This document shows, piece by piece, positions 31,891-61,526 of a stretch of DNA of 64,000 nucleotides. Under the pieces are notes generated by a model. It saw only the letters and a list, made by a program, of their open reading frames with translations, did no database searches and was not told the origin of the DNA. Position 1 is the first letter of the stretch; each line of letters begins with the position of its first letter. Source of the stretch: an uncultured Candidatus Saccharibacteria bacterium (lineage in GTDB: Bacteria; Patescibacteriota; Minisyncoccia; SW-4-49-11); contig CAZWIJ010000002.1 of NCBI GenBank assembly GCA_964633865.1, positions 64,628 through 128,627 on the forward strand, read 5' to 3'. The translations under genes and the position numbers were made by a program.

Positions 31891-31941
31891 TATATTTTTA
31901 CAAAAAAAGACCACTCTATCAAGGTGATAGGTGGTCTAAAT

Positions 31942-35942: not shown

Positions 35943-35954
35943 TAATGATTTTCC

Positions 35955-36446: not shown

Positions 36447-36455
36447 CTAACATTT

Positions 36456-37556
36456 TTATTTAATTATATCCAATAAATCTTCAAAGAAATAGGTTTTATT
36501 TCTTTCTTTATTATTATGATGAATAATCAAATTTTGAGATAAATAATGCAAGATACGAAAAGTTGCATCTTTTTTTATTCCCGTTTGCCTTGAAAAATCA
36601 GCAGAGTCAAAAATAGGTACTGAGAATAAGTAATCTAAGACTTTAATAGAATTTTTTGGAGTAGGAATATCAATAATTTTATCTTTTAATTGTTCATATA
36701 GAGCAAGAATTTTTTTAACTTTTTCAATGTTTTTTATGGACTGTTCTTCTACTGCTATAAGAAAAAATTTAATCCAACTTTCCCAATCCCCATTTCTTGA
36801 TATGTTTTGTAGATAATCATAATATTCATCACGATGAAGCTCAAAATACTCACTCAAATAAAACATTGGAGAAGATAGAACTTTTTTGTAATACAAGAAT
36901 AATGGCATTAAAATTCTTCCTGTTCTTCCGTTTCCATCCCAAAAAGGATGAATAATTTCAAATTGAGCATGAACAATTGCAAGTTGAACTATTTGATCTT
37001 TTTCATCAGAATGAATATATTTTTCAAAATTAGAAAAATACTCTGCAATATTTTGTGGTTCTGGTGGAATATAGCTGGCTCCTTCTACTCCCAATCCTTG
37101 TTTTCCAATAAAAACAGAACCTGTTCTAAAATTTCCAGGATTTTTCCCTTCTCCCCTTGTCCCCTTTAAAAGAAGCTTATGTATTTCTTTGATCAATTGT
37201 CCTGTTAAAGGGATTGTTTCGAGTTTTGTAATTGCTACACTCATGGCATGCCTATAATTAATAATCTCTTGAATATCTTCATATTTTTCAGTTTTTTCCT
37301 TTGGGTTGGCATCAAATTGTAAAACTTCTTCAAGAGTTGCTTGAGTCCCTTCAATTTTAGATGATAAAACGGCTTCTTTTGTTGATAGAGGAGATAAAAG
37401 AACTCTTCCATTTGGGATACTTTGAAGAAAAGCATCAAACTTCGCAACTGCTCTATTTGCTGTTCCTATATGAGCAATAAAAATATCCCCATTTAATTTT
37501 TCTAACGGTAAATTATCTGGTTTGAATGGTTTCATATTTTTTAAATTATAAATCAA
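36456..37556 (-). CDS. Fic family protein (AMPylase/Fido domain)
   Basis: canonical Fic motif HPFWDGNGRTGR; 366 aa; located between hsdM and hsdS. Confidence 0.85.
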   Translation of the reverse strand: MIYNLKNMKPFKPDNLPLEKLNGDIFIAHIGTANRAVAKFDAFLQSIPNGRVLLSPLSTKEAVLSSKIEGTQATLEEVLQFDANPKEKTEKYEDIQEIINYRHAMSVAITKLETIPLTGQLIKEIHKLLLKGTRGEGKNPGNFRTGSVFIGKQGLGVEGASYIPPEPQNIAEYFSNFEKYIHSDEKDQIVQLAIVHAQFEIIHPFWDGNGRTGRILMPLFLYYKKVLSSPMFYLSEYFELHRDEYYDYLQNISRNGDWESWIKFFLIAVEEQSIKNIEKVKKILALYEQLKDKIIDIPTPKNSIKVLDYLFSVPIFDSADFSRQTGIKKDATFRILHYLSQNLIIHHNNKERNKTYFFEDLLDIIK

Positions 37557-45896: not shown

Positions 45897-46526
45897 TTAA
45901 ATATATAGCTCTATTAAATTCATTTCTCCTATAGAGCCTGTTATTCTAGATTTCATATATCTAGAAAAATCCATATTATTAATATAAAATTCTAAAATTT
46001 GTACTTTTGTCATCTTATTACTCTCAAAAGTATTAAGCTTAAAGTTAGGATTTACTTTAAGCATTTTTTTAATATTCTGATTAAGCATAATATCAGCATA
46101 GGCATTCTCCAAAAGGATACTAGATTCAGGATCAGTAACTACATTGGGTAGATGACCTGATATATATGATGTGAAATAGTTTTTACTAACTATGATATAG
46201 TTAATACATATAAAATATTGATCCATTCTGACACCTATTTCTGACATATAATCAACTTTTAAGCTGAGTCTATATTTGAATCTTTCTTTTAAATAGCTTG
46301 CAAAACTTATGGCTCTTTCAGAATCACTTATTATATTTTCTTCTATATTATAGAAGCAGAATATTGGAATATTTGAGTCTCCTGGCATTATACCAGGAGG
46401 TAATAATTGACATATAACAATCAAATCTTTGTCATTCATTGAAAATATTTCAAGCAACTTATATCTTATAAAATGATGGACTGGGTTGGTTTGAGCCAAA
46501 ATATCAACCTGAATACTATGATACAT
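45897..46526 (-). CDS. hypothetical protein, member of a tandem paralogous pair (unknown family A)
   Basis: 209 aa; shares PGIM..DSN(I/L)PIF.FYN(I/L)E and C-terminal NP.FKL…L(E/L).YI…(F/G)FSRYM blocks with the 46646..47281 product. Confidence 0.5.
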   Translation of the reverse strand: MYHSIQVDILAQTNPVHHFIRYKLLEIFSMNDKDLIVICQLLPPGIMPGDSNIPIFCFYNIEENIISDSERAISFASYLKERFKYRLSLKVDYMSEIGVRMDQYFICINYIIVSKNYFTSYISGHLPNVVTDPESSILLENAYADIMLNQNIKKMLKVNPNFKLNTFESNKMTKVQILEFYINNMDFSRYMKSRITGSIGEMNLIELYI

Positions 46527-46645
46527 AAATTTTAAACCTATTAAAAGAACAACATTAAAATATTATTATAAAAAATTGTTTTTGTCAATACATCTTTACA
46601 AAAATAAAAACATCCTCATTCAATATAAAGATGTTTCATTGGATT

Positions 46646-47281
46646 TTAAAGATAAATTTTTAAAAATTGAACTCCTTCCCATGTTCCTTCTATAATATAT
46701 TCCATATATCTTGAAAATCCATATTCCTGTATATATACTTCTAAAAGTTCTAGCTTAGTTTTAGAATTTTCTTTAAAATTAATTAAAGATTCTAACTTAA
46801 ATCTTGGATTTTCTCTAAATAACCTTACGACATTACTATTAATCATAAATTCAGCATAAGCATTTAAAAAAATGTCTCTATACCCTTCTTCTAAATTCAA
46901 TTCTTTGTTTCTACCAATCAAATATTCATCAAAACAACTTTTATTGATAGCAATATAGTCAAAAGAAACGATATATCCTTCTGTAATAAGTCCAAATTTA
47001 TTTAAGCTCTTATCCTGAATATTAGGTATTTTAGAATATCTAACCTTAAGATGTTTACAAAAATGAGTAAATCTATCAGAGTCATTTATACAATTTTCTA
47101 AATTATAGAAATAAAATATCGGTAAATTAGAGTCAAAAAGCATTATGCCAGGTACAGTTATAGCTCCAAATATTATAAGCTCACTTTCTCTATTAGAGAG
47201 CATTGGAGTTATTTCATTTTTTAAAATTACCTGTATTGAATCTTCAGCAGATGTAACATTAAATTGCAATCTATTATACAT
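46646..47281 (-). CDS. hypothetical protein, paralogue of 45897..46526
   Basis: 211 aa; see above. Confidence 0.5.
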   Translation of the reverse strand: MYNRLQFNVTSAEDSIQVILKNEITPMLSNRESELIIFGAITVPGIMLFDSNLPIFYFYNLENCINDSDRFTHFCKHLKVRYSKIPNIQDKSLNKFGLITEGYIVSFDYIAINKSCFDEYLIGRNKELNLEEGYRDIFLNAYAEFMINSNVVRLFRENPRFKLESLINFKENSKTKLELLEVYIQEYGFSRYMEYIIEGTWEGVQFLKIYL

Positions 47282-47427
47282 ATAAAATTCAGTTTTTAAA
47301 AAGAACTTATTAAATATATCTTAATTTAAAATCTATGTCAATATATAAAAAAGTTTTTAATTTGCTTTATATTCAAAAAAATTTTATAATATATAGTAGA
47401 AAAAACTTATTTTAATTAACACATAAT

Positions 47428-48669
47428 ATGGAAAAATTTAATCAAAATCAAAATTTACTAGAAGAAGACTTTTCACAAATCGACGAAGAAAATAATAGTT
47501 ATACTGAAAAGATTTTAAAAGTTAGACAAGAAAAATACAATTCAGAACTAAAGAGAACTTTAGAAGAAAGAACTTTAGAAAAAGCTCTTCAAAATAAAGA
47601 ACTTGAAGAATTAGAAAAACTACATCAAGAAAAATTATTAAAACAAGCTCAATTATTAGAAGAGCAAAGGGAAAAATTAGAAATTTTAACAAAAGTACAA
47701 GAATTTAAAGAAAAAATAGAATTAGAAAAACAAGAACTTATAGAAAATAAAGGTCCTCGAAAGAAATATAACGGATTTTCTTTTGAAGATACACTTAAGT
47801 CAGCTTTTGAAAATATTGAAGGAGATACTATTACAAGTGATATTAAATTACCTAATTTACGAAAAAAAGAAAATTTAAAATTAATTGAAAAACTCAATGA
47901 TATAGATCAAATTAAAGAGTTATTATACACTGTGCTTCCAGACAAATCAGCAATAGCAGAGTCCTATTTAAAAGAAGAAAATAAAACTGATGATCCTCAA
48001 GCTTGGCTTGATAAAGTAGCAGGTGTAGATATGCAACCTTATCAAATACTAAAGGGAGAAACAAAAGAAGGAAAAGATATATATTATCCTGAAATTGCTC
48101 TTGTAGATTTAACTACAGATTCTAATCCTGTAAAAATAAAAAGAAAAATGAAAAATCATATAAAAAGTATGGCTGTTTATTATGAACTAACTGGAAAAAA
48201 TTCTTTTCCTATAATTCTAATAATGGATGATAAAAAGTTTCTTAGAGATGATAGTGAAATAAATTTTAGAGAAAATAGATATAAATTATCTAATTTTATA
48301 TCAGGATATCTAACTAAAATTCTAGAAATGAATCCAAACAAAAGACCTGCATATATCAAGTTCTCTGAAATTCAAGAAGTCTACAATAATGATTTAGATA
48401 CATATGATGACCCTGAAAAACCAAAAAACAGCTGGAAAAAAAGAGAAAAAAATGTCCAAAACCATTTAATAAGATTATCTAATATAGAATTAGAGATTAA
48501 AAAAAAGAATCGCTATACTAGTGATGAAGAATATTTAGAAAAAGAATTTGATGGAGATACTGAGAAAAGAATTATTTTTAGAAAATCTGCTTTAGAAAAT
48601 ATAAGTAAAGGATATTCTAATCAACAAATATTTGAACTATTACCTAAAAATAAAAAATCAGATGAGTAA
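47428..48669 (+). CDS. hypothetical protein with N-terminal E/K-rich coiled coil and C-terminal globular domain
   Basis: 413 aa; no recognised motif. Confidence 0.45.
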   Translation: MEKFNQNQNLLEEDFSQIDEENNSYTEKILKVRQEKYNSELKRTLEERTLEKALQNKELEELEKLHQEKLLKQAQLLEEQREKLEILTKVQEFKEKIELEKQELIENKGPRKKYNGFSFEDTLKSAFENIEGDTITSDIKLPNLRKKENLKLIEKLNDIDQIKELLYTVLPDKSAIAESYLKEENKTDDPQAWLDKVAGVDMQPYQILKGETKEGKDIYYPEIALVDLTTDSNPVKIKRKMKNHIKSMAVYYELTGKNSFPIILIMDDKKFLRDDSEINFRENRYKLSNFISGYLTKILEMNPNKRPAYIKFSEIQEVYNNDLDTYDDPEKPKNSWKKREKNVQNHLIRLSNIELEIKKKNRYTSDEEYLEKEFDGDTEKRIIFRKSALENISKGYSNQQIFELLPKNKKSDE

Positions 48670-48743
48670 ATTTAATTTATTATCGTAAAACTTTTTACTA
48701 TTAAATAAAAAGATTACATCATCACAATGTAATCTTACTAAAT

Positions 48744-49085
48744 TCAATTCAATTTATGAAATACTTCCAATTCTTTAGAAGTATTTAACATACCATCTAC
48801 CAAATCATAGATATCCTCATCATAGAAGACATCTATAAAATCTTTATCTCCATAATAATCTGTTAAGAGCTTACAGGTGTAAGCTCTGTTTTTTGAGAGG
48901 AAAAAAACTTTTTCCTCTCTATCATATTTTCTAAAAACAAGCCTCCCTTCAAATAGAGGTCCGTCTTGTCTTATATGAAATTCCCAATTATGATTGAGAA
49001 TTCTAATACATTTAAATCCCAAAAATAATTTTTCCAAAGGAAAACTATAAAAATTTTCCAAATTTTCAAATATTCTTTTTTTCAT
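48744..49085 (-). CDS. hypothetical protein
   Basis: 113 aa ORF. Confidence 0.35.
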   Translation of the reverse strand: MKKRIFENLENFYSFPLEKLFLGFKCIRILNHNWEFHIRQDGPLFEGRLVFRKYDREEKVFFLSKNRAYTCKLLTDYYGDKDFIDVFYDEDIYDLVDGMLNTSKELEVFHKLN

Positions 49086-49321
49086 AATGAACTATTGCAA
49101 AACAACCCTAGAATTATAACATAAATAACTAAAAATGTCAATCCATATTAACTAATATTATAAATTTTTATATAAATTAAATTAGATGTAAATATTTATT
49201 GATTATTATATAAAAAAGTTCTATACTTAATAAGTACTCTAAATATTAATTATATTAAATTTAAAATATAGTAAAAATAGATGATAAAGAAAAAAGTAAA
49301 TTATTTAAATGGAACTTAATA

Positions 49322-50149
49322 ATGGGATTTTTGCACTTGGTGCAAGGACTATTTATGGCTCTAATTTCTAAAGAAAATCTCACTCAAATAAAAATTTGGC
49401 TTCCTGATGTAAATCCTGTAGGAAGAACTTTTGATCTAGTGCCAGAAAATTGGTATCAAATTAATCTTGGATATACAATATCTCTGTTTTTATTTGCATC
49501 AGCAATAGCTCATTTTATTACAATTGCACCCAAAATATTTGATTGGTATTTAGATAATTTAGCACTTAAAGTAAATTTGATCAGATGGTTTGAATATGCT
49601 ATTTCTAGCTCAATTATGGTCTATGTAATTGCTATTTTATGTGGAATTAATGATGGAATTTTATTATTTGCTCTTGTATCACTTAATGCTTGTATGAATT
49701 TATTTGGAGCTATTATGGAAATGCATAATTCCAGTTTGAGACAAATTTCTTTGATGAAGCAACTCAAAGTATATTCTACAGAGAAAATAAATGTTGATTT
49801 AGACGAAGATAAGGAGTTTAAACCAAATTGGGCTAGTTTTATTTATGGGTGTTTTGCTGGAGCTATTCCTTGGGTTATAATGGCTATTTATTTCTTCGTG
49901 TCACTAGACAGATTAGGAGATTTAGCAGAACTACCACAAAGAGTCAAAGATGTTCTCAATACTGTTAGATGGATATTCCCTATTTTATTTATATTCTTTA
50001 ACTTATTTGCTATTAACATGTATTTACAATATGAAAAAATTGGAAAATGGAAATCTTATCTGTTTGGAGAAAAAGCTTATATTATTCTAAGTTTAACTGC
50101 AAAATCTTTCCTCGCTTGGTTTATTTGGGGAGGAATTTTAAGAGGATAA
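49322..50149 (+). CDS. heliorhodopsin (7-TM retinal-binding photoreceptor, inverted topology family)
   Basis: Block-for-block match to heliorhodopsin 48C12. NLIRWFEYAISSSIMVYVIAILCGINDGILLFALVSLNACMNLFGAIME contains the counterion Glu in RWFEY. FIYGCFAGAIPWVIMAIYFF is present. YLQYEKIGKWKSYLFGEKAYIILSLTAKSFLAWFIWGGIL contains the Schiff-base Lys in SLTAKSFLAW. Both conserved His are present (LHLVQ, AIAHFIT). Confidence 0.8.
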   Translation: MGFLHLVQGLFMALISKENLTQIKIWLPDVNPVGRTFDLVPENWYQINLGYTISLFLFASAIAHFITIAPKIFDWYLDNLALKVNLIRWFEYAISSSIMVYVIAILCGINDGILLFALVSLNACMNLFGAIMEMHNSSLRQISLMKQLKVYSTEKINVDLDEDKEFKPNWASFIYGCFAGAIPWVIMAIYFFVSLDRLGDLAELPQRVKDVLNTVRWIFPILFIFFNLFAINMYLQYEKIGKWKSYLFGEKAYIILSLTAKSFLAWFIWGGILRG

Positions 50150-50329
50150 ATTTTATATCAAAAAAAGAGTACAAAATAATTTGTGCTCTTTTTTTATTAA
50201 ACAAGTTATATTCTATTGACAAAATATTTTTGATATAGTATAGTTTCTCTAGATTATACCAATAAGTTTTCATACATAAAACATATTATTGTACTATAAT
50301 CTACTGTTCTTTTACAACAAATAAAATTT

Positions 50330-50962
50330 ATGAAATTTCTAAGAAATCTTCTAATTGTTTTTCTAATCGCTTTTTTTATAATTATGTTGATATTTTATTT
50401 AGGAATACTTTTAATTCCTATTGCATTTATTTTAAAATCAGAAAAAATAAAAACAAATTCTGATCATGATATAACTTTAGATGAAGATGTGATTAATGCC
50501 ATAAATAATTATGATCTTAATATGGATGAAAAAATCCAAGTTCAGATTGAAAAAGATAAAATCTTTACAACTTCTGGGCATATAACGAACAGTTGTTCTC
50601 TATCTTTCCAAGATAAAGTTATTAATTATCTAGAGAATTTAAGGATTGAAGAGTGTCAATCATGTCTTTCAAAAATTATAAAGTTGAAAGAGGATGGTTT
50701 TGACCCTATTATAATTGGAGATGATTTTGATATCATCGCCCTTGATGGATTAATTCTATTTCAAGTTCCTGAAAATTTTGAGAAAGATAAAGACTGTAGA
50801 GTCAAAATGATCAAAAATGTTTTGATCTTTGAAATGCATATTTCAAGAAAAATTAGTATGGAAGAAAAGCAATTTTTTGCTCCTTTAGTAAAAAAAATTG
50901 CTGAGAAATTAGCCTCACAAAAAAATTTAGTTAAACACTATGATCCTATCTTATGTGTTTAA
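50330..50962 (+). CDS. hypothetical membrane-anchored protein
   Basis: 210 aa; N-terminal TM LLIVFLIAFFIIMLIFYLGILLIPIAFIL. Confidence 0.4.
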   Translation: MKFLRNLLIVFLIAFFIIMLIFYLGILLIPIAFILKSEKIKTNSDHDITLDEDVINAINNYDLNMDEKIQVQIEKDKIFTTSGHITNSCSLSFQDKVINYLENLRIEECQSCLSKIIKLKEDGFDPIIIGDDFDIIALDGLILFQVPENFEKDKDCRVKMIKNVLIFEMHISRKISMEEKQFFAPLVKKIAEKLASQKNLVKHYDPILCV

Positions 50963-51000
50963 TATAAATTAATATTTTAATTACATCTTAATCAAAATTA

Positions 51001-51033
51001 AACACAATCTTTACAAATTGTGTTTTTTATTTT
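51001..51033 (+). terminator. intrinsic terminator (aacacaat-loop-attgtgtt + T-run)
   Basis: perfect 8-bp stem followed by TTTTTATTTT. Confidence 0.55.
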
Positions 51034-51056
51034 TACAATAAAAATGCAAATATAGT

Positions 51057-51085
51057 TTGACAAAAATATCTATTTATGATAACTT
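51057..51085 (+). promoter_or_regulatory. sigma70-like promoter (TTGACA-17-TAACTT) followed by RBS AAAGGAG before ATG 51136
   Basis: consensus -35, weak -10, good Shine-Dalgarno at 51124-51130. Confidence 0.35.
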
Positions 51086-51135
51086 TACTTAGGTAATTAA
51101 TATAAATTACAGCACTTTAATAAAAGGAGAATTTT

Positions 51136-52401
51136 ATGTTTCTAGATCATTATGCTAATTTTGAGATATCTAATTTACCCAATGGGTTAAAAGTCTATAA
51201 TTATAAATGGCCTTACAATGTAGGGTATCACCGTATCGGATTAATTATCCATACTGGAAGTGATAAAGATCCTGTGGGACTTGAAGGATTAGCTCATTAT
51301 GTGGAACATATGGTTGCAAATTCTTGCAAAACAAATGAAATGGAAGATTTCTTCTCTGATAAAGGCGGATTTATTACTTTTGGCAATACAAGTTTTAAAG
51401 GAATTTCTTATAGATTTAAGACAAGTAATGATAGAGATTCAATTAAAGAGAGTCTGGAAAAATTATCTGAAATTATTTTTAATGCCAATCTAACCGAGCA
51501 AGGTTTAGAGAAGCAAAGAAATATTATTCGATGTGAATTTTTAAAATCATATCCTAATAATTTCTCTTATGAAAGAATTCTAAGAGAGCATAGCTCTGTT
51601 TATCCAAACACTTTTTTAGAAAGACTGCCTTCACTTTTAGGAAATTTAGAAACTATTACTAATATTTCTCTTAAAGATATTAAGACTTTCTATGATATTC
51701 ATTATGTCCCAGCCAATATGAGTATTGTCTCCGTTGGGAATCTTTCAATTGAAGAAATAACAAATATGCTTTCTTCTACTGAATTTGGCAGAAATTATAA
51801 TATTGGAAAATTAAATCCTAAACCAGATTTAAACCCTTCTATTATCAATCCAAAAGAGCATTTTTATGAATATGAACTTCATAAAGTACTAAAAATGGAA
51901 AAACAATATGATGATTTTTTCTCATATTCTGGAGTAACTTCTCTACCAAACACGGTTAGTTCAAAAGCAATTTATATTTATATGAATATGCTTATAACAA
52001 AACTTAATGATGTGTTCAGGGAAGACTTGGAAGCGACATATCACATTGATTGTTGTATGTATAATTTTAGACATTTTTATAATTTCCAAATTTATTCCTC
52101 TAATTTAAATTTGAGAATTCTACCTGATATCAATACTTTAATTCAAGATTGTGTAAAAGGATGTCTTTCCAAAGACAATTTTGAGAAAGAAAGAAGACAT
52201 TCATTAATGTATCTTCAATCTTTAGATGAAAAAGGTTCTGACATTTTAGACAACTCAATGGGAGATTTAGAAGATTATCATCAAATTATTACCATTCAAG
52301 ATTCACTAGATAAATATTCTAATCTAGAATTCCAAGATGTTGAGCATATAGCTTCCCTATTAAGTTCTGACAGATTATGGACTTGTATCACAAAACCATA
52401 A
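51136..52401 (+). CDS. M16 family (pitrilysin/insulinase-like) zinc peptidase
   Basis: inverted zincin motif HxxEH (GLAHYVEHMV); 421 aa. Confidence 0.7.
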   Translation: MFLDHYANFEISNLPNGLKVYNYKWPYNVGYHRIGLIIHTGSDKDPVGLEGLAHYVEHMVANSCKTNEMEDFFSDKGGFITFGNTSFKGISYRFKTSNDRDSIKESLEKLSEIIFNANLTEQGLEKQRNIIRCEFLKSYPNNFSYERILREHSSVYPNTFLERLPSLLGNLETITNISLKDIKTFYDIHYVPANMSIVSVGNLSIEEITNMLSSTEFGRNYNIGKLNPKPDLNPSIINPKEHFYEYELHKVLKMEKQYDDFFSYSGVTSLPNTVSSKAIYIYMNMLITKLNDVFREDLEATYHIDCCMYNFRHFYNFQIYSSNLNLRILPDINTLIQDCVKGCLSKDNFEKERRHSLMYLQSLDEKGSDILDNSMGDLEDYHQIITIQDSLDKYSNLEFQDVEHIASLLSSDRLWTCITKP

Positions 52402-52515
52402 TCCCAAAAGTTTAGAAATTTAACTCTAACATAATTTAAATTTATAATACTAGATTAAACAGTCTAGTATTTTTATTTATTAATTATTTACAAAAATATC
52501 AATCACTATTGATAA

Positions 52516-52788
52516 ATGATCAGTTTTGAGTATAATATACTTTGTAAATGTACTTTAACAAAAGGTAAAAAGGTGAATTTTATGACTTCAAATATTACTT
52601 TGGATGAAGGAATTGTTTCTTTATATATTGGTATCAGAGGATTTTATAATAAAAATCGAGAAGATAATTTTTGTCAATTAGAGCTATTATGTTCCAAAAA
52701 TAATTCAGGTTTATCTGACTTAATTAATTTTATTGATCTTAAAAATAGAGCTTTTTATAAGTCAAGTCTTCTATCCTTTTATTTATAA
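52516..52788 (+). CDS. small hypothetical protein
   Basis: 90 aa ORF immediately upstream of LRR gene. Confidence 0.3.
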   Translation: MISFEYNILCKCTLTKGKKVNFMTSNITLDEGIVSLYIGIRGFYNKNREDNFCQLELLCSKNNSGLSDLINFIDLKNRAFYKSSLLSFYL

Positions 52789-52791
52789 GAA

Positions 52792-53721
52792 ATGTGTAAA
52801 TCAGGAAAGAATGGTTTTTGGAAAACATCTATTCAATTAAAAAATAATCAGAAGTTAAAGATACCTCATACAATCAGGAATTTAGATTCCATTTGTATTT
52901 CAAATCTCATATCACCTGGAATTGATATATCCTCCAAAAACTTCTTTTTAGATGATTTATCTATACCTAAAAGTCATAAAGAACCCATTACTATTAGTAC
53001 AAAATCACAATATGTTGAAATAGATGAGTTGGATGCAAAATTTTGTAATAAATTTTTATTCAACTTTAAAAATACTTATGAGCTGTGTATTAATGCATTT
53101 AATACAGCTAAACATTTATGTTTTAATAATAAGTTTATAATTGGAAACAGTCTTAAATCTTTAAGAATAAAAAATAGAATATTACATCCTGAATATTTAG
53201 TTCTGAATGAAAACTTAGAGAGTCTATATATTCAAGAATTAAAATCTTGTAAAAATTTAAAGTTAAACTCTAACTTAAAGAAACTTGAGATATATTATTT
53301 AAAGACAGCTTATGGTTTAATTTTAAATGATAATTTAGAAAAACTAATTCTTCCAAATATAACTACAGCTTATGGGTTAACTTTAAATGATAATTTAGAA
53401 AGACTAATTCTTCCACATCTAATTTCTGTTAAGAATCTAATTTTAAATGAAAAATTAAAATTCTTAAAGCTAGATAGTCTAGTTAATGCTAAAAATCTCA
53501 AGTTAAATGAAAAATTAGAAATTCTAGAACTAAATGGAATCGAAAATGGAGAGGGACTAGTTTTTAACGATAAATTGAGAATTGTTCAATTTAAGAGCTT
53601 AAAAACTGCTAAAAACTTAATTTTACCTCGAAGCATTGAAAAAGTAATTATACCTAAAGTACCTTACTTATCAGCCTTGAGAAAAAATCATCCAAAAGCC
53701 CAATTTATAATTTTAAAATAA
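52792..53721 (+). CDS. leucine-rich-repeat (BspA-like LRR) protein
   Basis: multiple ~20-aa L..L.L..N…L..L repeats (NLKLNSNLKKLEIYYL, LILNDNLEKLILPNI, LTLNDNLERLILPHL…); tandem 60-bp DNA repeats at ~53290-53420. Confidence 0.55.
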   Translation: MCKSGKNGFWKTSIQLKNNQKLKIPHTIRNLDSICISNLISPGIDISSKNFFLDDLSIPKSHKEPITISTKSQYVEIDELDAKFCNKFLFNFKNTYELCINAFNTAKHLCFNNKFIIGNSLKSLRIKNRILHPEYLVLNENLESLYIQELKSCKNLKLNSNLKKLEIYYLKTAYGLILNDNLEKLILPNITTAYGLTLNDNLERLILPHLISVKNLILNEKLKFLKLDSLVNAKNLKLNEKLEILELNGIENGEGLVFNDKLRIVQFKSLKTAKNLILPRSIEKVIIPKVPYLSALRKNHPKAQFIILK

Positions 53722-53868: not shown

Positions 53869-55674
53869 ATGAATTCACATATCCGAAATATTGCCATTAT
53901 TGCCCATGTTGACCACGGGAAAACAACTCTAATGGATGCTATCCTAAAACAAACTCAAATATTCAGAGAAAATCAAGATATGGCTGAAAGGGTAATGGAT
54001 TCTATGGATTTAGAAAGAGAAAAAGGAATTACAATCAAAGCTAAAAATGCTACTGTTCAGTACAAAGATATTACAATCAATTTGATTGACACTCCTGGTC
54101 ATGCTGATTTTGGTGGTGAAGTAGAAAGAGTTTTGAGGATGGCTGATGGGGCTTTACTTCTTATTGATTCCAAAGAAGGTCCTATGCCTCAAACAAAATT
54201 TGTGCTAAAAAAAGCACTTCAGCAAGGTATGAGAGTTGTGGTGGTTGTAAATAAAATTGACAGACCTGATGCTAATCCAGAATTTGTTATAGATAAAACC
54301 TTTGATCTATTTGGAGACTTGAATGCAAATGATACTCAATTAGATTTCCCTATTGTTTATACATCAGCAATGAATGGAACTTCTTCACTAAACTCTGAAA
54401 AACAAAATCCTGATTTGACTGATTTATTTGAGGTTATTGTAAATGAGATTCCTGCTCCTACATCTCCTATTGAATCTAGTTTTAGAATGTTAACCCTAAA
54501 TTTACAGTTTGATAAATACAAGGGAACCATGGCTGTAGGTAAAGTTGATGCTGGTATTGTCAAAAAAGGAATGTCTGTTGTTAGAATTGATAGAGAAGGA
54601 AATCAAACTAAGAATAATGTGACTGCCCTACTTAAATACTCAGGAATGAATACAGTAGAAGTTGATGAAGTTTTAGCTGGTGATATTGCAGTTGTGGCTG
54701 GAATTTCTGGAATTGAAATTGGAGATACTGTAGCAGATAGCCAAAACCCTATCCAAATTACACCTGTTGAAATCGAATTACCTACTTTACAAATGATTTT
54801 TGCTATTAATGATAGTCCTTTTTCTGGAAAAGAAGGTAAATACTCTACTTCAAGAATGATTAGAGAAAGATTATATAAAGAACAAGAAACAAATATTGCT
54901 CTTAAAGTTGAAGATACAGATAGTCCAGAGAAATTCTTAGTGTCAGGAAGAGGTGAACTTCATTTATCTGTTTTGATTGAGACTATGAGAAGAGAAGGAT
55001 TTGAATTTTCTGTTGGGAGACCACAAGTTATTTATAGAGATAATAATGGTGTTACTGAAGAACCATATGAGTTACTTAGTATCGAAGTGCCCGAAGATTA
55101 TAGCGGAAAAATAATTGAAGCCATCAACAAAAGACAAGGTGAACTTCTAAATATGGAATTAACTGAAGCTAATGAATCTAAATTAGAATATAAGATTGCA
55201 ACTCAGAATCTGATTGGACTTAGAAGTATACTACTTACCTTATCCAAAGGAACTGTAATTATGAATAGTTTATTCCTAGAATATGGTCCAAAAACAACCA
55301 ATTACAAAGGAAGAAATACAGGCTCTATTGTTTCTTTAGAAAGTGGAAAAATCACTAACTATGCTCTAGATGGAGCATCTGACAGAGGAACATTCTTTGT
55401 GAAAGATGGAACTGAAGTTTATCCTGGAATGGTGCTTGGAGAAGCTAATCAAGAGTTTGATATAGAAATAAACCCCATTAAAGCTAAAAAATTAACCAAT
55501 ATGAGAGCTTCTGGATCAGATGATGGTGTTTATATAGCTCCTCCAAGAAATCTATCTCTTGAGGCTTCAATTGAGTATTTAGCTGATGATGAATTATTAG
55601 AAGTAACACCTCTATCACTCAGAATCAGAAAGAGAATTCTTGATACAAATGAGAGAAAGAAAGCTAAGAGATAA
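53869..55674 (+). CDS. typA: translational GTPase TypA/BipA
   Basis: G1 AIIAHVDHGKTTL, G3 DTPGHADFGGEVER, NKID; 601 aa with EF-G-like domains. Confidence 0.9.
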   Translation: MNSHIRNIAIIAHVDHGKTTLMDAILKQTQIFRENQDMAERVMDSMDLEREKGITIKAKNATVQYKDITINLIDTPGHADFGGEVERVLRMADGALLLIDSKEGPMPQTKFVLKKALQQGMRVVVVVNKIDRPDANPEFVIDKTFDLFGDLNANDTQLDFPIVYTSAMNGTSSLNSEKQNPDLTDLFEVIVNEIPAPTSPIESSFRMLTLNLQFDKYKGTMAVGKVDAGIVKKGMSVVRIDREGNQTKNNVTALLKYSGMNTVEVDEVLAGDIAVVAGISGIEIGDTVADSQNPIQITPVEIELPTLQMIFAINDSPFSGKEGKYSTSRMIRERLYKEQETNIALKVEDTDSPEKFLVSGRGELHLSVLIETMRREGFEFSVGRPQVIYRDNNGVTEEPYELLSIEVPEDYSGKIIEAINKRQGELLNMELTEANESKLEYKIATQNLIGLRSILLTLSKGTVIMNSLFLEYGPKTTNYKGRNTGSIVSLESGKITNYALDGASDRGTFFVKDGTEVYPGMVLGEANQEFDIEINPIKAKKLTNMRASGSDDGVYIAPPRNLSLEASIEYLADDELLEVTPLSLRIRKRILDTNERKKAKR

Positions 55675-56813: not shown

Positions 56814-59800
56814 TTACTTACTCCAAACAATATCCATATTATCTAATTTATAATTACTTGGATAATGAGAAAAGTTTTTCTCATTACTAAATGAATAATT
56901 TCCATCTTCATTATTAACTTCTTTATATTTATTTATAGCTTTATCCATAGATTTTTCAAAAATAGTATCTGTTCTATTTGTCCTTATATGTTTATTCTTT
57001 GAAATTGCTATCTTATCAAAATCATTATCTTTAGCAAAATCTATTAAAGTGTTATTTAATTCATTAAATAGTGATTCTTGATCTACAGAATACAAATATG
57101 TACTTGATGGATTATACGATGCTGACAAAATTTTCTGTCCATCTTCATCCTTAAAATGATGTAATAATACTAATCCCACACATCTTTTATTTTCTGGATT
57201 TTGTAGCACTAACTGAAAGTAATTTGGCATATCCCATATATTCTTTTCTCCTTTATCTGGATTACAGCCTGAAACACATACTCCTCCGACCATTCTTGCA
57301 TATGAACTCAAGTCATCTTTATTTATATATCCATTTAATTTCTTTGGTTTTTTCTCTATTTTTTTACCATCTGGATCATAATCTACCATTATAAATTTAT
57401 TGACTTCTGTTTCTATTATCTCATTCTCTTCTTTATACAAATTTGTGACACTTTGTTCTATTAATCTATTAAATAGTTCTTCATCATAAATTCCATCTGA
57501 TGCTGAAATCTTTAGAGCTATTACTTCTTTTAGATTTATATCTCCTAAATGTGTTGTCATCAAATCTTGTTCTTCTCCTGTTAATTGTCTAAATGCTTCT
57601 ACTGTTTTATTTCTCTGTCCCTTTAATCTTCCATAAAATGTCTTGGTATTAGAATCACTAGAGTTTGAGACTTTCTCCTCTAAAAATCCTGTCAGACTCT
57701 CATATCTACTTATAATTTCTCTTACTCTATCTTCTGAATACTTTTCTTCTATTCTTGCTTTTTCTTCTTTTGTACTGTCTTTATTTAACCTTCTTTTAAT
57801 TAAAATATTTCTCATATCTTTTATAAATTTGTCATTTAATCCTAATTTATCTATTTGTAACTTTCCTAATTCTTGTTTTTCTCTAGCTATTCTTTCTCTT
57901 TCTTGATTTTCTTTATATACATTCTCTGTTATCTCTTGAAATATTGGGTTTTGTTTTCCTTTATCTACTATTACATTCTGGGCTTCTTTTATTGTATCTT
58001 TGTAGAATTCTGATAATCCCATTATTTTCTCATAGTCTTTTTCTATTCCTTCTTCCCCATTTTCCTGATATCTTTCTATATTATCCAAATGTGAAAAATT
58101 ATAATACAAAATGCTCTTTTTTATCTCTTCTTCTTTGATTTCTTTATTTAATCTTGAATATAATATTGCTGCATAAATTTTCTCTTCTTGACTGATTAGT
58201 TTTTCTACTTGTATACCTAATTTATTCTCTTCTCCTATTTTTACTATCATTTCTTCTATGATTTTATCCAGACTCTGACTTATTTTTTCTATTCCTCCTT
58301 CATTATATTCTCTCATTATCTCTTCTCTTTCTTTTTCTATTTTTCCCAAATTTTCTTTATCTATTTCTCTTCCTTCTCTTAACTCTAATTTACTTTTGTC
58401 CACTATATTTATTGGGTATTTTTCTTTTATCTTAAATCCTTCTAAATCTTGACTTCTGTCTTGACATGTCTTTACTGATTCATATTTACCATAACTACCT
58501 GCATTATTTGGATATGTATATTCTAATAAATCTTGGAAATATTCTTCATTTCTCTCTTCTTCTTTAACTCCTCCACTTGTCATTCTATCCATTGTATCTG
58601 TAATTTTATCTAAATATTCTGTCTCTTTTTGCTTACTCTTGGCTTCAAGGTATTCTTTTACTATTATTGTATTCAATACTGGAATTCTATTTACTAATTC
58701 CAATATATCTTCATAATTCTCTTCTTTTATGATTCCTTTTTCTTTACACTCTACATATCCCTTGATTAATTCTTTTTCAAGTCCATTATGTTTTTTTACT
58801 AACTTTACTACAAAAGAGTTTTCTTTATTATATTCCTTAAATCCTATTTTCTCGGATAATTTGTAAACTTTCATTCCCTTTTCAGAATATGACTTTATTA
58901 TTATTTCGTTTATTTCTTCAGTATTTTCTTGGAAAAATTCTTCTCTATATCCCACCTCTATGTTATCCCAATAATCTAATTCATCTGTCAAAGAATATAT
59001 ATTTTCTCCTAAAGAAATTTTTATATTATTACTTATTTTCTCTTTATTATTTTGCAAAATTTCTTTATTATAACCAGGTTTTATACTATTCCAATAATCC
59101 AATTCTTCTTCAATATATCTTATATTATACCCCGATAGAAATCTATTTTTCACTCTTTCTTCTATTTTTTCTTTATTTTTTTCAAAAAAATTCTTAGCAT
59201 ATCCTTCCTCTACTCCATCCCAATATTTTAAATCTTGTATCAAATTAGAAGAATTATATTGAGATATCATATTTTCTAACTTACTATTCATTAAATCAAA
59301 ATTATTTCTTAAAAAATTAACTTTGTAACCTTTTTCTATAATTTCCATATTATATAAGATTACATATAATGATTCTAGATTACCTGTACCTTCGTTTAAA
59401 GCATCTTGGATTCTTTGTTCTACAATAAGACTAAAGTCTTCATTGTTAATTATCCCTTCCAAATTTTTAATATCTCTTAAACTTCTTATTTGTGAAATTT
59501 CTATATCCAATTCTTTTTTATACTTATTTTTGAATTCGTCTAAATCTAAAGAACCATTATTAAATAACTCTTTAATTAATCTACGACCATCATGGTCATT
59601 TAAATAGGAAATACTTTCCACAACTTGTAAATAAAATTTCTCTTTAATTTCTTCATTAGGGAATTCTAGTTTTAAATCATTTATTTGAAAATCAATTTTT
59701 AAGTCTACAATGTTTCTGAATAAAGAATTGTCTGTTTTTCCTTTATAAATAATATAATTATTTATTATATTATTTATATCTTCATCAGATAGAGAACTTT

Positions 59801-61526
59801 TATCTATATTAAACTCTCTTTCTACATCTTTATAACTACTTAAATCTGAATATTGACTTACATTTAAATATAATATACTAACAATATCATTATAATTATT
59901 AAGGTATTCTGTATTAAATAAATCATTTTCAGATATCAATTTTATTAAGTTTCTAATATCATTAAATATCCTTTCAGATCTTTCAAATCCGTTTCTATCA
60001 ATCTTTCTTTGGATAAATGAATTTATTTTTTCCTGATTTTCCTCTAAAAATTCTTTCTTATTCAATATTTGTTCTTTTTCTAAGAAGTTAAGAAATTTTA
60101 TGGAGATTTTAATATCAGAAGAAAAAAACATATCTACTATTTTTACATCTATACTAACTTTATTATTAGTATAAAATTCTTTAAAATCCACACCATAAAG
60201 TTGGCTCCATTCTTCAATCTTTTTATCTATATCTATATCTATATCTATAGGATTTATAAATATCTTATCAAAGTCAGAAAACATTGTTTGTATTTTTTCT
60301 TTGCTTAAATCTTGATTTTCATTCTGATAACCAATCTTCTCAAGAAATTTATTTTTATCCGTGGCTAAAAGATTATTGATTACATTTTCTATGTCTTCTT
60401 CTTTATATATTCTATTTAAATTAATATAATTTGTTATATCTTGAATAAGTTCTTCCATTGAAAAATCTTCTTTGTCGGGTAAATTTTTATAATTTTCCTC
60501 TATTTTATCTTTTAAATATGTTTTAAAATGTATGTTCTCAGTGTCATTATATATATTTTCTAAATTAATAAATTCTTTATCTTGAGTTAAAGTATTTTTA
60601 TATATCTTATTAAAAATATTTTCTGAATTAATTTCTTCTTCCATTTTTTTCAACTCTTCTTCTGAAGCAGGCATAATTTCACTTCTCTTCATCCTATCCA
60701 AGCCTGAATAATTTTCTATTATATCATTAGATAAGTGTATCTTGTCCAAAGTGTTATTTAATTTAACAAAATTTATTAAATCTTCTTGTATAGAATCTTT
60801 TGGCAAATCCATTTCATAGATTAAGCTAACTTTGATAGCCTCTAATTTTGAGATTTCAGTGTCTATTTTAATTTTTAAAAGTTCTCTATCTCTTGCTAAA
60901 TCTTTTGTATCCCACATATTTTCTTTTTCTATTGATGTTGGGTTTATTGATTTATAACTCTCTTCTATTTCTTCTATTTTTTTAATCATTAACAAAGCTA
61001 TATTTTGTACTTTTTCTTTAAATTCTTGGAATACTTTTATATTTTTTAAACTTTCTATTAAAGTATTTCTTTCTTCCCTACCTAAATTTGAGGTTGATTG
61101 AAAAAAATCCATACTCTTTTCTTTATCTATTCCTTTTAGAAAAAATAAATTATCTTTTAAATTATCGCTTTCTACTAAACTAGCATAATCTGATTCTTCA
61201 TTATTTTCTTTATCTAAATCCTTTAATTGTTCTTGTAAATCTTGATAGAAATCTATAATTTCTTGTGTAGATTTCTGTAAGTTTTCTATAGAAAATTCTA
61301 AAGATTTTTCTTTATCTTTATTGATTACTGTATTTTCGATTGCTTTTATTATTGGAGAGTTTTGCCTAAAATATTCCCAGATATTTTCTGGTGGTTTGAT
61401 TTTCTCACCTTCAAACTTATCTATTTCAATATTTTCTACTTTACTCTCCTTTTCTGATAAAGTCTCTTGTTTTTTTTCTAAAATTTCTTCCTCACTCCCT
61501 TGATTATAATTTCTAAATTTTTCCAT
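56814..61526 (-). CDS. giant (1570 aa) E/K/N/I-rich repeat-containing hypothetical protein
   Basis: single uninterrupted ORF; three ~35-aa (D/E)L(D/K)YW(D/N).(I/V).(E/P)GY…NKEKI repeats; (ID)n tract encoded by a (TATATC)n microsatellite at ~60225-60250; Cys/His-containing C-terminal globular region. Confidence 0.6.
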   Translation of the reverse strand: MEKFRNYNQGSEEEILEKKQETLSEKESKVENIEIDKFEGEKIKPPENIWEYFRQNSPIIKAIENTVINKDKEKSLEFSIENLQKSTQEIIDFYQDLQEQLKDLDKENNEESDYASLVESDNLKDNLFFLKGIDKEKSMDFFQSTSNLGREERNTLIESLKNIKVFQEFKEKVQNIALLMIKKIEEIEESYKSINPTSIEKENMWDTKDLARDRELLKIKIDTEISKLEAIKVSLIYEMDLPKDSIQEDLINFVKLNNTLDKIHLSNDIIENYSGLDRMKRSEIMPASEEELKKMEEEINSENIFNKIYKNTLTQDKEFINLENIYNDTENIHFKTYLKDKIEENYKNLPDKEDFSMEELIQDITNYINLNRIYKEEDIENVINNLLATDKNKFLEKIGYQNENQDLSKEKIQTMFSDFDKIFINPIDIDIDIDKKIEEWSQLYGVDFKEFYTNNKVSIDVKIVDMFFSSDIKISIKFLNFLEKEQILNKKEFLEENQEKINSFIQRKIDRNGFERSERIFNDIRNLIKLISENDLFNTEYLNNYNDIVSILYLNVSQYSDLSSYKDVEREFNIDKSSLSDEDINNIINNYIIYKGKTDNSLFRNIVDLKIDFQINDLKLEFPNEEIKEKFYLQVVESISYLNDHDGRRLIKELFNNGSLDLDEFKNKYKKELDIEISQIRSLRDIKNLEGIINNEDFSLIVEQRIQDALNEGTGNLESLYVILYNMEIIEKGYKVNFLRNNFDLMNSKLENMISQYNSSNLIQDLKYWDGVEEGYAKNFFEKNKEKIEERVKNRFLSGYNIRYIEEELDYWNSIKPGYNKEILQNNKEKISNNIKISLGENIYSLTDELDYWDNIEVGYREEFFQENTEEINEIIIKSYSEKGMKVYKLSEKIGFKEYNKENSFVVKLVKKHNGLEKELIKGYVECKEKGIIKEENYEDILELVNRIPVLNTIIVKEYLEAKSKQKETEYLDKITDTMDRMTSGGVKEEERNEEYFQDLLEYTYPNNAGSYGKYESVKTCQDRSQDLEGFKIKEKYPINIVDKSKLELREGREIDKENLGKIEKEREEIMREYNEGGIEKISQSLDKIIEEMIVKIGEENKLGIQVEKLISQEEKIYAAILYSRLNKEIKEEEIKKSILYYNFSHLDNIERYQENGEEGIEKDYEKIMGLSEFYKDTIKEAQNVIVDKGKQNPIFQEITENVYKENQERERIAREKQELGKLQIDKLGLNDKFIKDMRNILIKRRLNKDSTKEEKARIEEKYSEDRVREIISRYESLTGFLEEKVSNSSDSNTKTFYGRLKGQRNKTVEAFRQLTGEEQDLMTTHLGDINLKEVIALKISASDGIYDEELFNRLIEQSVTNLYKEENEIIETEVNKFIMVDYDPDGKKIEKKPKKLNGYINKDDLSSYARMVGGVCVSGCNPDKGEKNIWDMPNYFQLVLQNPENKRCVGLVLLHHFKDEDGQKILSASYNPSSTYLYSVDQESLFNELNNTLIDFAKDNDFDKIAISKNKHIRTNRTDTIFEKSMDKAINKYKEVNNEDGNYSFSNEKNFSHYPSNYKLDNMDIVWSK

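What the first reader, a model, noticed from the sequence alone, without database searches (positions are those of the whole stretch)
49322..50149. Heliorhodopsin gene in an AT-rich, reduced-genome (CPR-like) bacterium
The 275-aa product aligns block-for-block with characterised heliorhodopsin 48C12: RWFEY counterion region, the SSSIM…CGI..G.L…N block, FAGAIPW, YLQY…GKW..YL.GE.AYI.LSL.AKS.LAW with the Schiff-base Lys, and both conserved His. No retinal-biosynthesis genes (blh, crtY/B/I) are present in this window, so the organism would depend on exogenous retinal if none exist elsewhere. That is the same situation described for type-1 rhodopsins of Saccharibacteria. It implies light sensing, or light-dependent physiology, in an episymbiotic-type lineage.
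Basis: partly seen in the sequence, partly recalled or inferred. Interest (0 to 1): 0.75.

Follow-up and report, generated by a model that had tools for sequence, protein, structure and literature searches.

The report
Heliorhodopsin gene in a Parcubacteria genome
This is a genuine heliorhodopsin (a light-sensing, retinal-binding membrane protein) gene in a tiny-genome CPR/Parcubacteria bacterium, a combination already known from metagenomes; the unusual point is that this strain has lost the gene's normal ATG start codon.

Summary
The ORF 49322..50149 (+) is real and is a heliorhodopsin (HeR). It matches Pfam PF18761 at E=5e-70. Its best solved relatives are TaHeR and 48C12. The AlphaFold model (pLDDT 91.6) superposes on TaHeR (TM-score 0.90). 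The Schiff-base Lys, the Glu counterion and both conserved His are present and invariant across about 200 relatives.

The host is a CPR bacterium. Every named DnaE relative is Parcubacteria or Patescibacteria. GC is about 28% and genes lack Shine-Dalgarno motifs.

None of about 52 ORFs in the window is a retinal or carotenoid gene. The rest of the genome could not be checked.

- The family-typical protein is 293 aa. The homologous frame starts at 49268, where relatives have ATG. This population has ATA (window plus 6 samples) or ATT (3 samples). That base is the only variable site in 1244 nt. Starting at Met19 would remove half of helix A.
- This clade carries a cytoplasmic D-E loop insert of about 26 aa and a longer E-F loop.

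HeRs in CPR are already published and annotated in NCBI. This is a new member of a known kind and of modest interest.

The parts
49268..50149 (+). Full heliorhodopsin reading frame (293 codons plus TAA), homologous end to end with the 293-aa relatives. The first codon is ATA instead of ATG.
   Evidence: P0001 (97% identical) starts MVKIDDKEKSKLFKWNLIMGF, which equals the window's in-frame IVKIDDKEKSKLFKWNLIMGF. The AF2 model of this form has pLDDT 91.6 and pTM 0.88, with helix A at residues 6-33.
49268..49270 (+). Ancestral start codon, now ATA. Its third base (49270) is polymorphic A/T in the population.
   Evidence: The codon is ATG in L098 (97% aa), L105 (89% aa) and P0125. It is ATA in the window and in L001, L005, L006, L109, L110 and L112, and ATT in L002, L003 and L004. 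Position 49270 is the only variable site in 1244 nt across the copies.
49322..50149 (+). The ATG-initiated ORF as reported (275 aa). It begins at Met19 of the family-typical protein.
   Evidence: Met19 lies inside helix A (residues 6-33) of the model.
49592..49594 (+). Glu counterion codon (E91 in 275-aa numbering, E109 in 293-aa numbering) within RWFEY.
   Evidence: It aligns to TaHeR E108 and 48C12 E107. It is 204/204 conserved. Codon GAA.
50090..50104 (+). SLTAK motif: Ser257 through the Schiff-base Lys261 (K279 in 293-aa numbering).
   Evidence: It aligns to TaHeR K238 and 48C12 K241. S and K are each 203/204 conserved. This is the SxxxK heliorhodopsin motif used as the criterion in PMC9166423.
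49334..49336 (+). His5 (His23 of the 293-aa form), the helix A histidine of the HeR polar cluster.
   Evidence: It would sit only 4 residues from the N-terminus if translation starts at 49322.
49511..49513 (+). His64 (His82 of the 293-aa form), the helix B histidine.
49730..49828 (+). Clade-specific cytoplasmic D-E loop segment (SSLRQISLMKQLKVYSTEKINVDLDEDKEFKPN): 33 residues where typical HeRs have 7.
   Evidence: Segment-length comparison over 204 HeRs. The edges are conserved and the middle is variable. It is modelled as an extension of helix D (residues 130-166) plus short helices, with pLDDT 84-95. It is unaligned to TaHeR and 48C12.
49907..49951 (+). Extended extracellular E-F connection (DRLGDLAELPQRVKD), with positions conserved within the clade (R215, G217, P223, K227 in 293-aa numbering).
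50135..50137 (+). Ile272 (I290 in 293-aa numbering), a rare substitution of a Thr that is conserved in 188 of 204 sequences (WGGTLR).
   Evidence: The change is derived on the window branch, judged at the amino-acid level (relatives L098, L105 and P0125 all have Thr).
49086..49267 (.). Intergenic region between the divergent 113-aa ORF (48744..49085, -) and the HeR frame.
   Evidence: It is only 70.6% identical to L098, against 98% for the 54-nt N-terminal extension and the CDS. No Shine-Dalgarno motif is present, as for all genes in the window.

Best explanation
The locus encodes a true heliorhodopsin of a Parcubacteria-type CPR bacterium.

Inferred from family knowledge, the protein would be a 7-TM membrane protein with its N-terminus in the cytoplasm. 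It would bind all-trans-retinal through a Schiff base at Lys279 (Lys261 of the reported ORF), stabilised by the Glu109 (Glu91) counterion and the His23/His82 cluster. Like characterised prokaryotic HeRs, it would act as a slow-cycling light sensor or regulator that signals through its cytoplasmic loops rather than as an ion pump. This clade has an enlarged cytoplasmic D-E loop.

Retinal would have to come from outside the cell, as is usual for CPR; this is shown for the window only.

In this particular population the ancestral ATG start (49268) has been replaced by the near-cognate codons ATA or ATT. The full-length 293-aa protein can therefore be made only by weak non-canonical initiation. 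Otherwise a form lacking half of helix A is made from Met19 (49322). The gene is thus either attenuated or at the first step of being lost.

The confidence of 0.7 is for the whole statement. Family membership alone is about 0.97, the sensor/regulator mode about 0.6, and the functional status in this strain is open.
For: Shown:
- Pfam PF18761, E=5e-70.
- PDB phmmer hits are heliorhodopsins only.
- AF2 model pLDDT 91.6. Foldseek top 10 are all solved HeRs (E 3e-17 to 1e-12, TM-score 0.83-0.91 normalised by target length). Type-1 rhodopsins reach only E about 1e-2 at 10-15% identity.
- Lys, Glu, both His and the SxxxK Ser are conserved in 202-204 of 204 sequences.
- K+R counts favour the predicted cytoplasmic side, about 16 to 7 (plus the N-terminal sequence).
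- The host's DnaE relatives are all Parcubacteria/Patescibacteria.
- The gene's GC (0.29) matches the genome.
- No carotenoid or retinal genes in the window.
- Start codon: ATG in three relatives, ATA or ATT here; 49270 is the sole polymorphism in 1244 nt.
- The 54-nt extension is 53/54 identical to the 97% relative, while the adjacent intergenic DNA is 70.6% identical, so it evolves like coding sequence.
- Helix A spans residues 6-33.

From the literature:
- HeRs act as regulators through intracellular loops (PMC11109279).
- HeRs are proposed sensory rhodopsins in monoderms, including Patescibacteria (PMC8612252).
- HeRs take up external retinal rapidly (PMC9296517).
Against: - No partner gene is adjacent: no histidine kinase, glutamine synthetase, photolyase or ABC exporter. 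The neighbourhood is not conserved among 68-72% identical relatives.
- The middle of the D-E insert is poorly conserved, which weakens the idea of a specific docking surface.
- Loss of ATG, plus a T-to-I change at a 92%-conserved position, may mean this allele no longer functions.
- Retinal binding, photocycle and topology were not measured.
- The habitat, and hence light exposure, of the samples could not be established.
Confidence: 0.7

Rival explanations
1. The gene is an early-stage pseudogene in this population. The start codon has been lost, and the rest of the frame is intact only because the loss is recent.
For: ATG has changed to ATA or ATT in all 10 sampled copies of this population, while relatives keep ATG. 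A rare T290I change sits at a 188/204-conserved site on the window branch. An independent relative (L100/L101, 70% identical) carries an in-frame TGA at codon 3 of the same N-terminal segment. Together these suggest that N-terminal disruption recurs in this clade.
Against: The 882-nt frame is uninterrupted in a 28%-GC genome. The exact protein occurs in 48 blocks of the collection, with no other change in 1244-1628 nt. Both alleles are near-cognate codons that NCBI table 11 lists as possible initiators (established knowledge). Met19 offers a downstream ATG. The sole polymorphism falling on the start codon looks more like tuning than random decay.
Confidence: 0.25
2. The functional product is the 275-aa protein initiated at Met19 (49322). 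A shortened helix A is tolerated.
For: Met19 is conserved in 199 of 204 HeRs in the alignment. It is the first canonical start after the upstream stop. Gene callers report the 275-aa form in many samples.
Against: In the high-confidence model, helix A runs from residue 6 to 33. A Met19 start leaves about 15 helical residues and puts the conserved His23 four residues from the N-terminus. Nearly all relatives encode the extension with a conserved K-N-L-R/K-x-W-N motif. Other short calls (P0034, P0041) were gene-caller artefacts with proper upstream ATGs. The 54-nt extension stays conserved like coding DNA.
Confidence: 0.2
3. It is an ion-transporting heliorhodopsin, a proton channel or pump like viral V2HeR3, that supplies energy or ion flux to a metabolically poor CPR cell.
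For: Some viral HeRs transport protons (cited in PMC11109279, and PMC12873467). CPR cells do use type-1 proton pumps (PMC9296517).
Against: Its closest solved relatives are TaHeR and 48C12, prokaryotic HeRs in which, from my knowledge of the literature, no ion transport was detected. The proton-transport reports cited concern viral HeRs. No specific transport residues were identified or tested here.
Confidence: 0.07
4. It is not a heliorhodopsin but another 7-TM family or a type-1 rhodopsin.
For: None found.
Against: PF18761 is the only Pfam hit. Only HeRs appear in PDB by sequence. Type-1 rhodopsins appear only at Foldseek E about 1e-2 and 10-15% identity. The motif is SxxxK, not DxxxK.
Confidence: 0.01

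Closest known systems
Thermoplasmatales archaeon heliorhodopsin TaHeR (PDB 6is6, 7u55, 7clj)
   Same: It is the best solved match by sequence (E=9e-46) and by fold (38-39% identity, TM-score 0.90-0.91 normalised by target length). It has the same Glu counterion, Schiff-base Lys, His pair and A-B beta-hairpin.
   Different: The window protein has a D-E loop insert of about 26 aa and an E-F extension of about 9-14 aa that TaHeR lacks. The host is bacterial (CPR). The canonical start codon is lost.
Heliorhodopsin 48C12 (PDB 6su3, 6su4, 6uh3), the founding member
   Same: E107, K241, H23 and H80 all have equivalents. Sequence E is about 1e-34 and TM-score 0.83-0.86.
   Different: Only 32-34% identity. 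The loop inserts are absent in 48C12. Met19 corresponds to Ala in 48C12; this rests on the 48C12 sequence recalled from memory plus the alignment, which begins one residue further on.
CPR/Patescibacteria heliorhodopsins catalogued from MAGs (Chiriac et al. 2022, PMC9166423; Bulzu et al. 2021, PMC8612252)
   Same: The situation is the same: HeR genes with an SxxxK motif in reduced CPR genomes, proposed as sensory or oxidative-stress-linked photoreceptors.
   Different: Those surveys found HeRs mainly in Saccharimonadia (80), Dojkabacteria (7) and ABY1 (3). Paceibacteria/Parcubacteria are not named among the HeR-bearing classes in the text read. The motif here is SLTAK, whereas their commonest motifs are SLVAK, SLIAK and SFVAK.
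Saccharibacteria type-1 rhodopsins (SacRs; Jaffe et al. 2022, PMC9296517)
   Same: A CPR host with no blh, and a proposed reliance on retinal from hosts or neighbours.
   Different: SacRs are DTS-motif outward proton pumps of the type-1 family with the opposite membrane orientation. The window protein is a heliorhodopsin.
Regulatory heliorhodopsins (OcHeR with the ABC exporter OmrDE; HeR with glutamine synthetase; HeR with photolyase; PMC11109279)
   Same: The likely mode of action is the same: light-dependent modulation of a partner protein through intracellular loops. The conserved Arg in the B-C loop (R106 here, 204/204) is present. Whether R106 corresponds to the OcHeR binding residues R102/R104 was not checked by alignment.
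   Different: No such partner gene is in an operon with the window's HeR. One 68%-identical relative (L104) does sit 68 nt downstream of an FtsX/ABC pair.

Membership tests
Heliorhodopsin (Pfam PF18761) | Profile match above the curated gathering score over the full domain | tested here: met
   236 bits against a 26.7-bit cutoff, E=5.2e-70, profile positions 8-242 of 242.
Heliorhodopsin (Pfam PF18761) | 7-TM rhodopsin fold closest to solved heliorhodopsins, with the A-B beta-hairpin | tested here: met
   The AF2 model has pLDDT 91.6, seven helices and strands at 38-49 and 54-66. The Foldseek top 10 are all HeR structures, with target-normalised TM-score up to 0.91.
Heliorhodopsin (Pfam PF18761) | Retinal-binding Lys in helix G within an SxxxK motif (not the DxxxK of type-1 rhodopsins) | tested here: met
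   SLTAK at 50090-50104. K aligns to TaHeR K238 and 48C12 K241. The criterion is as in PMC9166423.
Heliorhodopsin (Pfam PF18761) | Single Glu counterion in helix C (RWxEY) plus the His pair in helices A and B | tested here: met
   E91, H5 and H64 (275-aa numbering) are all at least 202/204 conserved.
Heliorhodopsin (Pfam PF18761) | Inverted topology: N-terminus cytoplasmic, C-terminus outside | tested here: met
   This is indirect only. K+R counts on the predicted inside loops plus the N-terminus are about 16, against 7 outside, together with homology to solved HeRs. No dedicated topology predictor or experiment was used.
Heliorhodopsin (Pfam PF18761) | Binds all-trans-retinal, absorbs in the visible range, has a slow photocycle and shows no ion pumping | not testable with these tools
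   This requires heterologous expression and spectroscopy.
Functional, expressed heliorhodopsin gene in this strain | Intact full-length frame with a canonical start codon covering the whole of helix A | tested here: not met
   The frame is intact, but the ancestral ATG is ATA or ATT in all 10 population copies. The next ATG (Met19) cuts helix A, which spans residues 6-33.
CPR / Patescibacteria (Parcubacteria-Paceibacteria) host | Housekeeping genes closest to CPR lineages | tested here: met
   All named DnaE relatives are Parcubacteria, Patescibacteria or their candidate phyla, apart from generic 'bacterium' labels and one record labelled Pacearchaeota. The nearest named HeRs are likewise CPR.
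CPR / Patescibacteria (Parcubacteria-Paceibacteria) host | Small genome, reduced metabolism, characteristic rRNA and ribosomal-protein features | not testable with these tools
   Only 64 kb is available and it holds no rRNA or ribosomal-protein genes. A 68%-identical HeR relative sits on a 1.27-Mb contig. The window species was not found among the GTDB representative genomes.
Retinal auxotrophy (as proposed for Saccharibacteria) | Absence of blh and crtE/B/I/Y from the whole genome | tested here: inconclusive
   They are absent from all ORFs of at least 100 aa in the 64-kb window. The rest of the genome was not available.
Type-1 microbial rhodopsin | Bac_rhodopsin profile match, DxxxK motif, N-terminus outside | tested here: not met
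   There is no Bac_rhodopsin Pfam hit. The motif is SxxxK. Type-1 structures appear only at Foldseek E about 1e-2 and 10-15% identity.

The most novel reading that the evidence does not exclude
The start codon is being actively tuned rather than lost by accident. In an SD-less CPR bacterium, swapping ATG for ATA or ATT (the only polymorphism in the locus) would set HeR dosage, or switch between a full-length and a Met19-initiated isoform.

Separately, this long-loop Parcubacteria HeR clade may signal to the translation machinery. typA/bipA lies within 6 kb of HeR in the window and in at least three further independent Patescibacteria lineages. Together this would describe a light-to-translation regulatory link in an episymbiont that must scavenge its chromophore.
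Probability: 0.1. Interest if true: 0.6.

Novelty: new member of a known kind. Interest (0 to 1): 0.3.

Why it matters
It adds a well-supported heliorhodopsin to the Parcubacteria/Paceibacteria branch of the CPR. That branch was not among the classes the published CPR survey named as carrying HeRs.

It defines a sub-clade of at least 86 sequences with an enlarged cytoplasmic D-E loop and a longer E-F loop. This sub-clade could be a useful target for finding HeR partners.

The start-codon loss is a caution for annotation. The 275-aa model propagated in databases is N-terminally truncated. Presence of a HeR gene in a MAG does not by itself show light sensing.

If the ATA/ATT alleles are functional initiators, the locus would be a natural test case for non-canonical initiation in SD-less CPR bacteria. 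Otherwise the finding is ordinary, because HeRs in retinal-auxotrophic CPR are already documented.

Tried and rejected
1. Giant-virus or eukaryotic origin. I considered this because of the low GC and the many orphan ORFs. I rejected it because the window holds DnaE, BipA, SufB, aminoacyl-tRNA synthetases, GlmM and restriction-modification systems.
2. Alternative genetic code (UGA recoded, as in Gracilibacteria/SR1). Rejected: long ORFs are intact under table 11, and stops are TAA 36, TAG 11, TGA 6.
3. A homopolymer frameshift to an out-of-frame ATG at 49283 as the explanation for the short N-terminus. Rejected once relatives showed an in-frame ATG exactly at 49268.
4. Using a Shine-Dalgarno motif to choose between the two starts. 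Not informative, because no gene in the window has one.
5. Promoter scan. Hits are no more frequent than in shuffled sequence (21 against 20.9), so I drew no inference about a leaderless transcript.
6. Genome-collection scan with the single protein found nothing. The window's own species was therefore not identified.
7. Two exact-pattern scans of metagenome contigs, meant to count start-codon alleles, found nothing. Allele counts rest on 10 contigs from the look-up of encoding contigs.
8. A literature search for the sample accessions, meant to learn the habitat, found nothing.
9. Conserved-neighbour search. No neighbour of the window's HeR recurs in 20 related loci except bipA. M16 peptidase plus TruB recur near HeR in L007 and L100 by Pfam labels only. 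This is probably residual synteny.
10. Polarised substitutions on the window branch (about 5 non-synonymous and 2 synonymous) are too few to test for relaxed selection.

Full report
**1. Observation**

The ORF 49322..50149 (+, ATG to TAA, 275 aa) is present exactly as described.
- Its only Pfam match is PF18761 Heliorhodopsin, at E=5.2e-70 and 236 bits against a 26.7-bit cutoff, covering profile positions 8-242 of 242.
- Against all PDB sequences, the only hits are heliorhodopsins: TaHeR 6is6/7clj at about 1e-45, 48C12 6uh3/6su3 at about 1e-34, plus 9ljj and 9vfc.
They are E91 in RWFEY (49592-49594), S257/K261 in SLTAK (50090-50104), H5 (49334-49336) and H64 (49511-49513).
- The alignments place them on TaHeR E108/K238/H23/H82 and 48C12 E107/K241/H23/H80.
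- In a MAFFT alignment of 204 HeRs (120 database homologues plus HeRs from 84 fetched loci), these positions are 202-204/204 conserved.

This is far beyond chance.

**2. The gene model is 54 nt too short, and the start codon is mutated**

Length in relatives:
- Most close homologues are 290-300 aa.
- The nearest, P0001 at 97% identity, begins MVKIDDKEKSKLFKWNLIMGF.
- The window encodes IVKIDDKEKSKLFKWNLIMGF in frame, directly after a TAA stop.
- The homologous frame is therefore 49268..50149.

State of the first codon:
- It is ATG in L098/L099 (97% aa) and in L105 (89% aa). The cluster member P0125 also has Met at this position.
- It is ATA in the window and in six other sampled contigs.
- It is ATT in three contigs.

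Evidence that the extension is coding:
- Position 49270 is the only variable site in 1244 nt across the population copies.
- Compared with L098, the 54-nt extension is 53/54 identical and the rest of the CDS is 98.4% identical.
- The adjacent upstream intergenic DNA is only 70.6% identical.
- The extension therefore behaves like coding sequence.

Consequence of starting at Met19:
- An AlphaFold2 model of the 293-aa form, built from a 101-sequence alignment, has pLDDT 91.6 and pTM 0.88.
- It places helix A at residues 6-33.
- Initiation at Met19 (49322) would delete about half of helix A and leave the conserved His four residues from the N-terminus.

Other short calls:
- P0034 and P0041 proved to be gene-caller artefacts with proper upstream ATGs.
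- One independent relative (L100/L101, 70% identical) has ATG-AAC-TGA followed by the conserved PYKNLRLWNGIM in frame.

No gene in the window has a Shine-Dalgarno motif, so ribosome-binding sites cannot decide between the starts. ATA and ATT are listed as possible initiators in NCBI table 11 but are weak in tested bacteria (established knowledge).

**3. Fold and clade-specific anatomy**

- The ten best Foldseek matches against PDB are all solved heliorhodopsins, at E 3e-17 to 1e-12 and target-normalised TM-score 0.83-0.91.
- Type-1 rhodopsins follow at E about 1e-2 and 10-15% identity.
- K+R residues are enriched on the predicted cytoplasmic side, about 16 to 7, consistent with the N-in topology of HeRs.
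- The segment between helices D and E is 33 residues long. In HeRs of Actinomycetota, Thermoplasmatota, Chloroflexota, Saccharibacteria and other groups it is 7 residues.
- 86 of the 204 sequences share the long form. Those with a named source are Paceibacterota, Parcubacteria or Patescibacteria.
- The insert has conserved edges (N-S-x-L, then F/Y-K-P-N-W) and a variable, charged middle. It is modelled as a cytoplasmic extension of helix D.
- The extracellular E-F connection is also longer and is better conserved (R215, G217, P223, K227, V233).

**4. Host and context**

- The window is bacterial. It holds DnaE, TypA/BipA, SufB, HisRS, two further class II aminoacyl-tRNA synthetases, a phosphoglucosamine-mutase-like protein, restriction-modification systems and tRNA-Asn.
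- GC is 24-38%, about 28% on average.
- Every named relative of its DnaE is Parcubacteria, Patescibacteria or one of their candidate phyla, the nearest at 66%. The only exceptions are generic 'bacterium' labels and one record labelled Pacearchaeota.
- The HeR's GC (0.29) matches the genome.
- The exact 275-aa protein is indexed in 48 blocks of the collection across ENA, JGI, NCBI and Logan, so the organism is widespread. I could not establish the habitat.
- No retinal or carotenoid biosynthesis family appears in any ORF of at least 100 aa. The rest of the genome was not available.
- The HeR is flanked by orphan ORFs. Neighbourhoods differ among 68-72% identical relatives.

**5. Mechanism**

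Shown: family membership, fold, and all chromophore-site residues.

Inferred from family knowledge:
- The protein binds all-trans-retinal at the helix G lysine.
- It has a slow photocycle.
- It acts as a sensor or regulator through its intracellular loops, as shown for the OcHeR/ABC exporter pair and reported for glutamine synthetase and photolyase (PMC11109279).
- A sensory role has been proposed across monoderm phyla, including Patescibacteria (PMC8612252).
- Retinal would be scavenged, as proposed for Saccharibacteria. HeRs are noted for fast uptake of external retinal (PMC9296517).

For this strain, expression must rely on weak ATA/ATT initiation or on Met19. Otherwise the gene is on its way out.

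My rough split between the three outcomes:
- attenuated full-length protein, about 0.35;
- early pseudogene, about 0.25-0.3;
- truncated product, about 0.2.

**6. Comparison with what is known, and novelty**

- HeRs in CPR are documented. Chiriac et al. found 115 rhodopsins in 86 of 1326 CPR genomes, of which 98 were HeRs. These were mostly in Saccharimonadia, with some in Dojkabacteria, ABY1, Microgenomatia and other classes (PMC9166423).
- NCBI already labels relatives 'heliorhodopsin HeR [Candidatus Parcubacteria bacterium]'.
- The finding is therefore a new member of a known kind.
- The modest additions are the Parcubacteria host, the long-loop sub-clade and the start-codon polymorphism.

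**7. Verdict**

Its retinal argument holds for the window only. Its interest score was too high. My score is interest 0.3.

Noticed in passing
window 53869-55674; L018 16001-17809; L068 11425-13236; L070 11367-13169; L080 5552-7345: typA/bipA lies within about 0.6-6 kb of the HeR gene in the window and in 4 of 85 other HeR loci. Three of these are labelled CPR (Paceibacterota, Berkelbacteria, Patescibacteria group) and L080 is labelled only 'bacterium'. L068 and L070 are closely related, so there are about 3 independent cases plus the window. By my rough estimate about 0.5-1 would be expected by chance. The link is absent from the window's 68-72% identical relatives.
   Followed up: partly
L100 and L101, about 1490-1576: A 70%-identical HeR relative (P0010) has ATG-AAC-TGA and then the conserved N-terminal peptide (PYKNLRLWNGIM) in frame, with no canonical start after the stop. 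This is a second, independent disruption of the HeR N-terminus. It is identical in two samples.
   Followed up: partly
L104 3029-5841: In a 68%-identical relative, the HeR gene lies 68 nt downstream of a co-directional FtsX permease and ABC ATPase pair. This recalls the published HeR-ABC transporter regulatory operons.
   Followed up: no
window 49113-49141 (- strand): A perfect 12/12 sigma-70 consensus (TTGACA, 17 nt, TG-TATAAT) lies just upstream of the divergent orphan 113-aa ORF (48744..49085, -). It is the strongest promoter-like site in the region.
   Followed up: no
window 49328-49348 (+): A 9-bp-stem hairpin (core TTGCAC/GTGCAA) starts 6 nt after the Met19 ATG, inside the codons for the conserved FLHLVQG. 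It could hinder initiation at 49322, or it may be coincidental.
   Followed up: no
window 45897-53721: This is the lowest-GC stretch of the window (0.24-0.26). It consists almost entirely of ORFs with no Pfam hit (209, 211, 413, 113, 210, 90 and 309 aa) around the HeR gene and an M16-like peptidase. The 309-aa ORF (52792-53721) consists of leucine-rich L-x-L-N-[DE]-x-L-[EK] repeats. The region may be a variable island between dnaE and bipA.
   Followed up: partly
window 30453-32625 (- strand): Three tandem paralogous small kinases (235, 210 and 227 aa) give weak Kdo/WaaP and protein-kinase family hits.
   Followed up: no
window 56814-61526 (- strand): A 1570-aa ORF has no Pfam hit at all. It lies in the region of most extreme composition (GC 0.24, GC skew down to -0.48).
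   Followed up: no
window 855-4619 and 35067-39661: There are two restriction-modification loci. The first is a 1254-aa Type ISP-like enzyme with an embedded DUF559 endonuclease domain. The second is a methylase/HsdR-N fusion with two split S-subunit ORFs and an intervening Fic/DOC gene; several of these ORFs have TTG starts.
   Followed up: no
window, all gene starts: None of 53 ORFs of at least 100 aa has a recognisable Shine-Dalgarno motif. Upstream regions are simply A/T-rich, so translation initiation in this organism is SD-independent.
   Followed up: partly
window 27470-28090: A 206-aa protein matches the TMEM175 (endosomal/lysosomal K+ channel) family at E=7e-22. This is a prokaryotic homologue in a CPR genome.
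   Followed up: no
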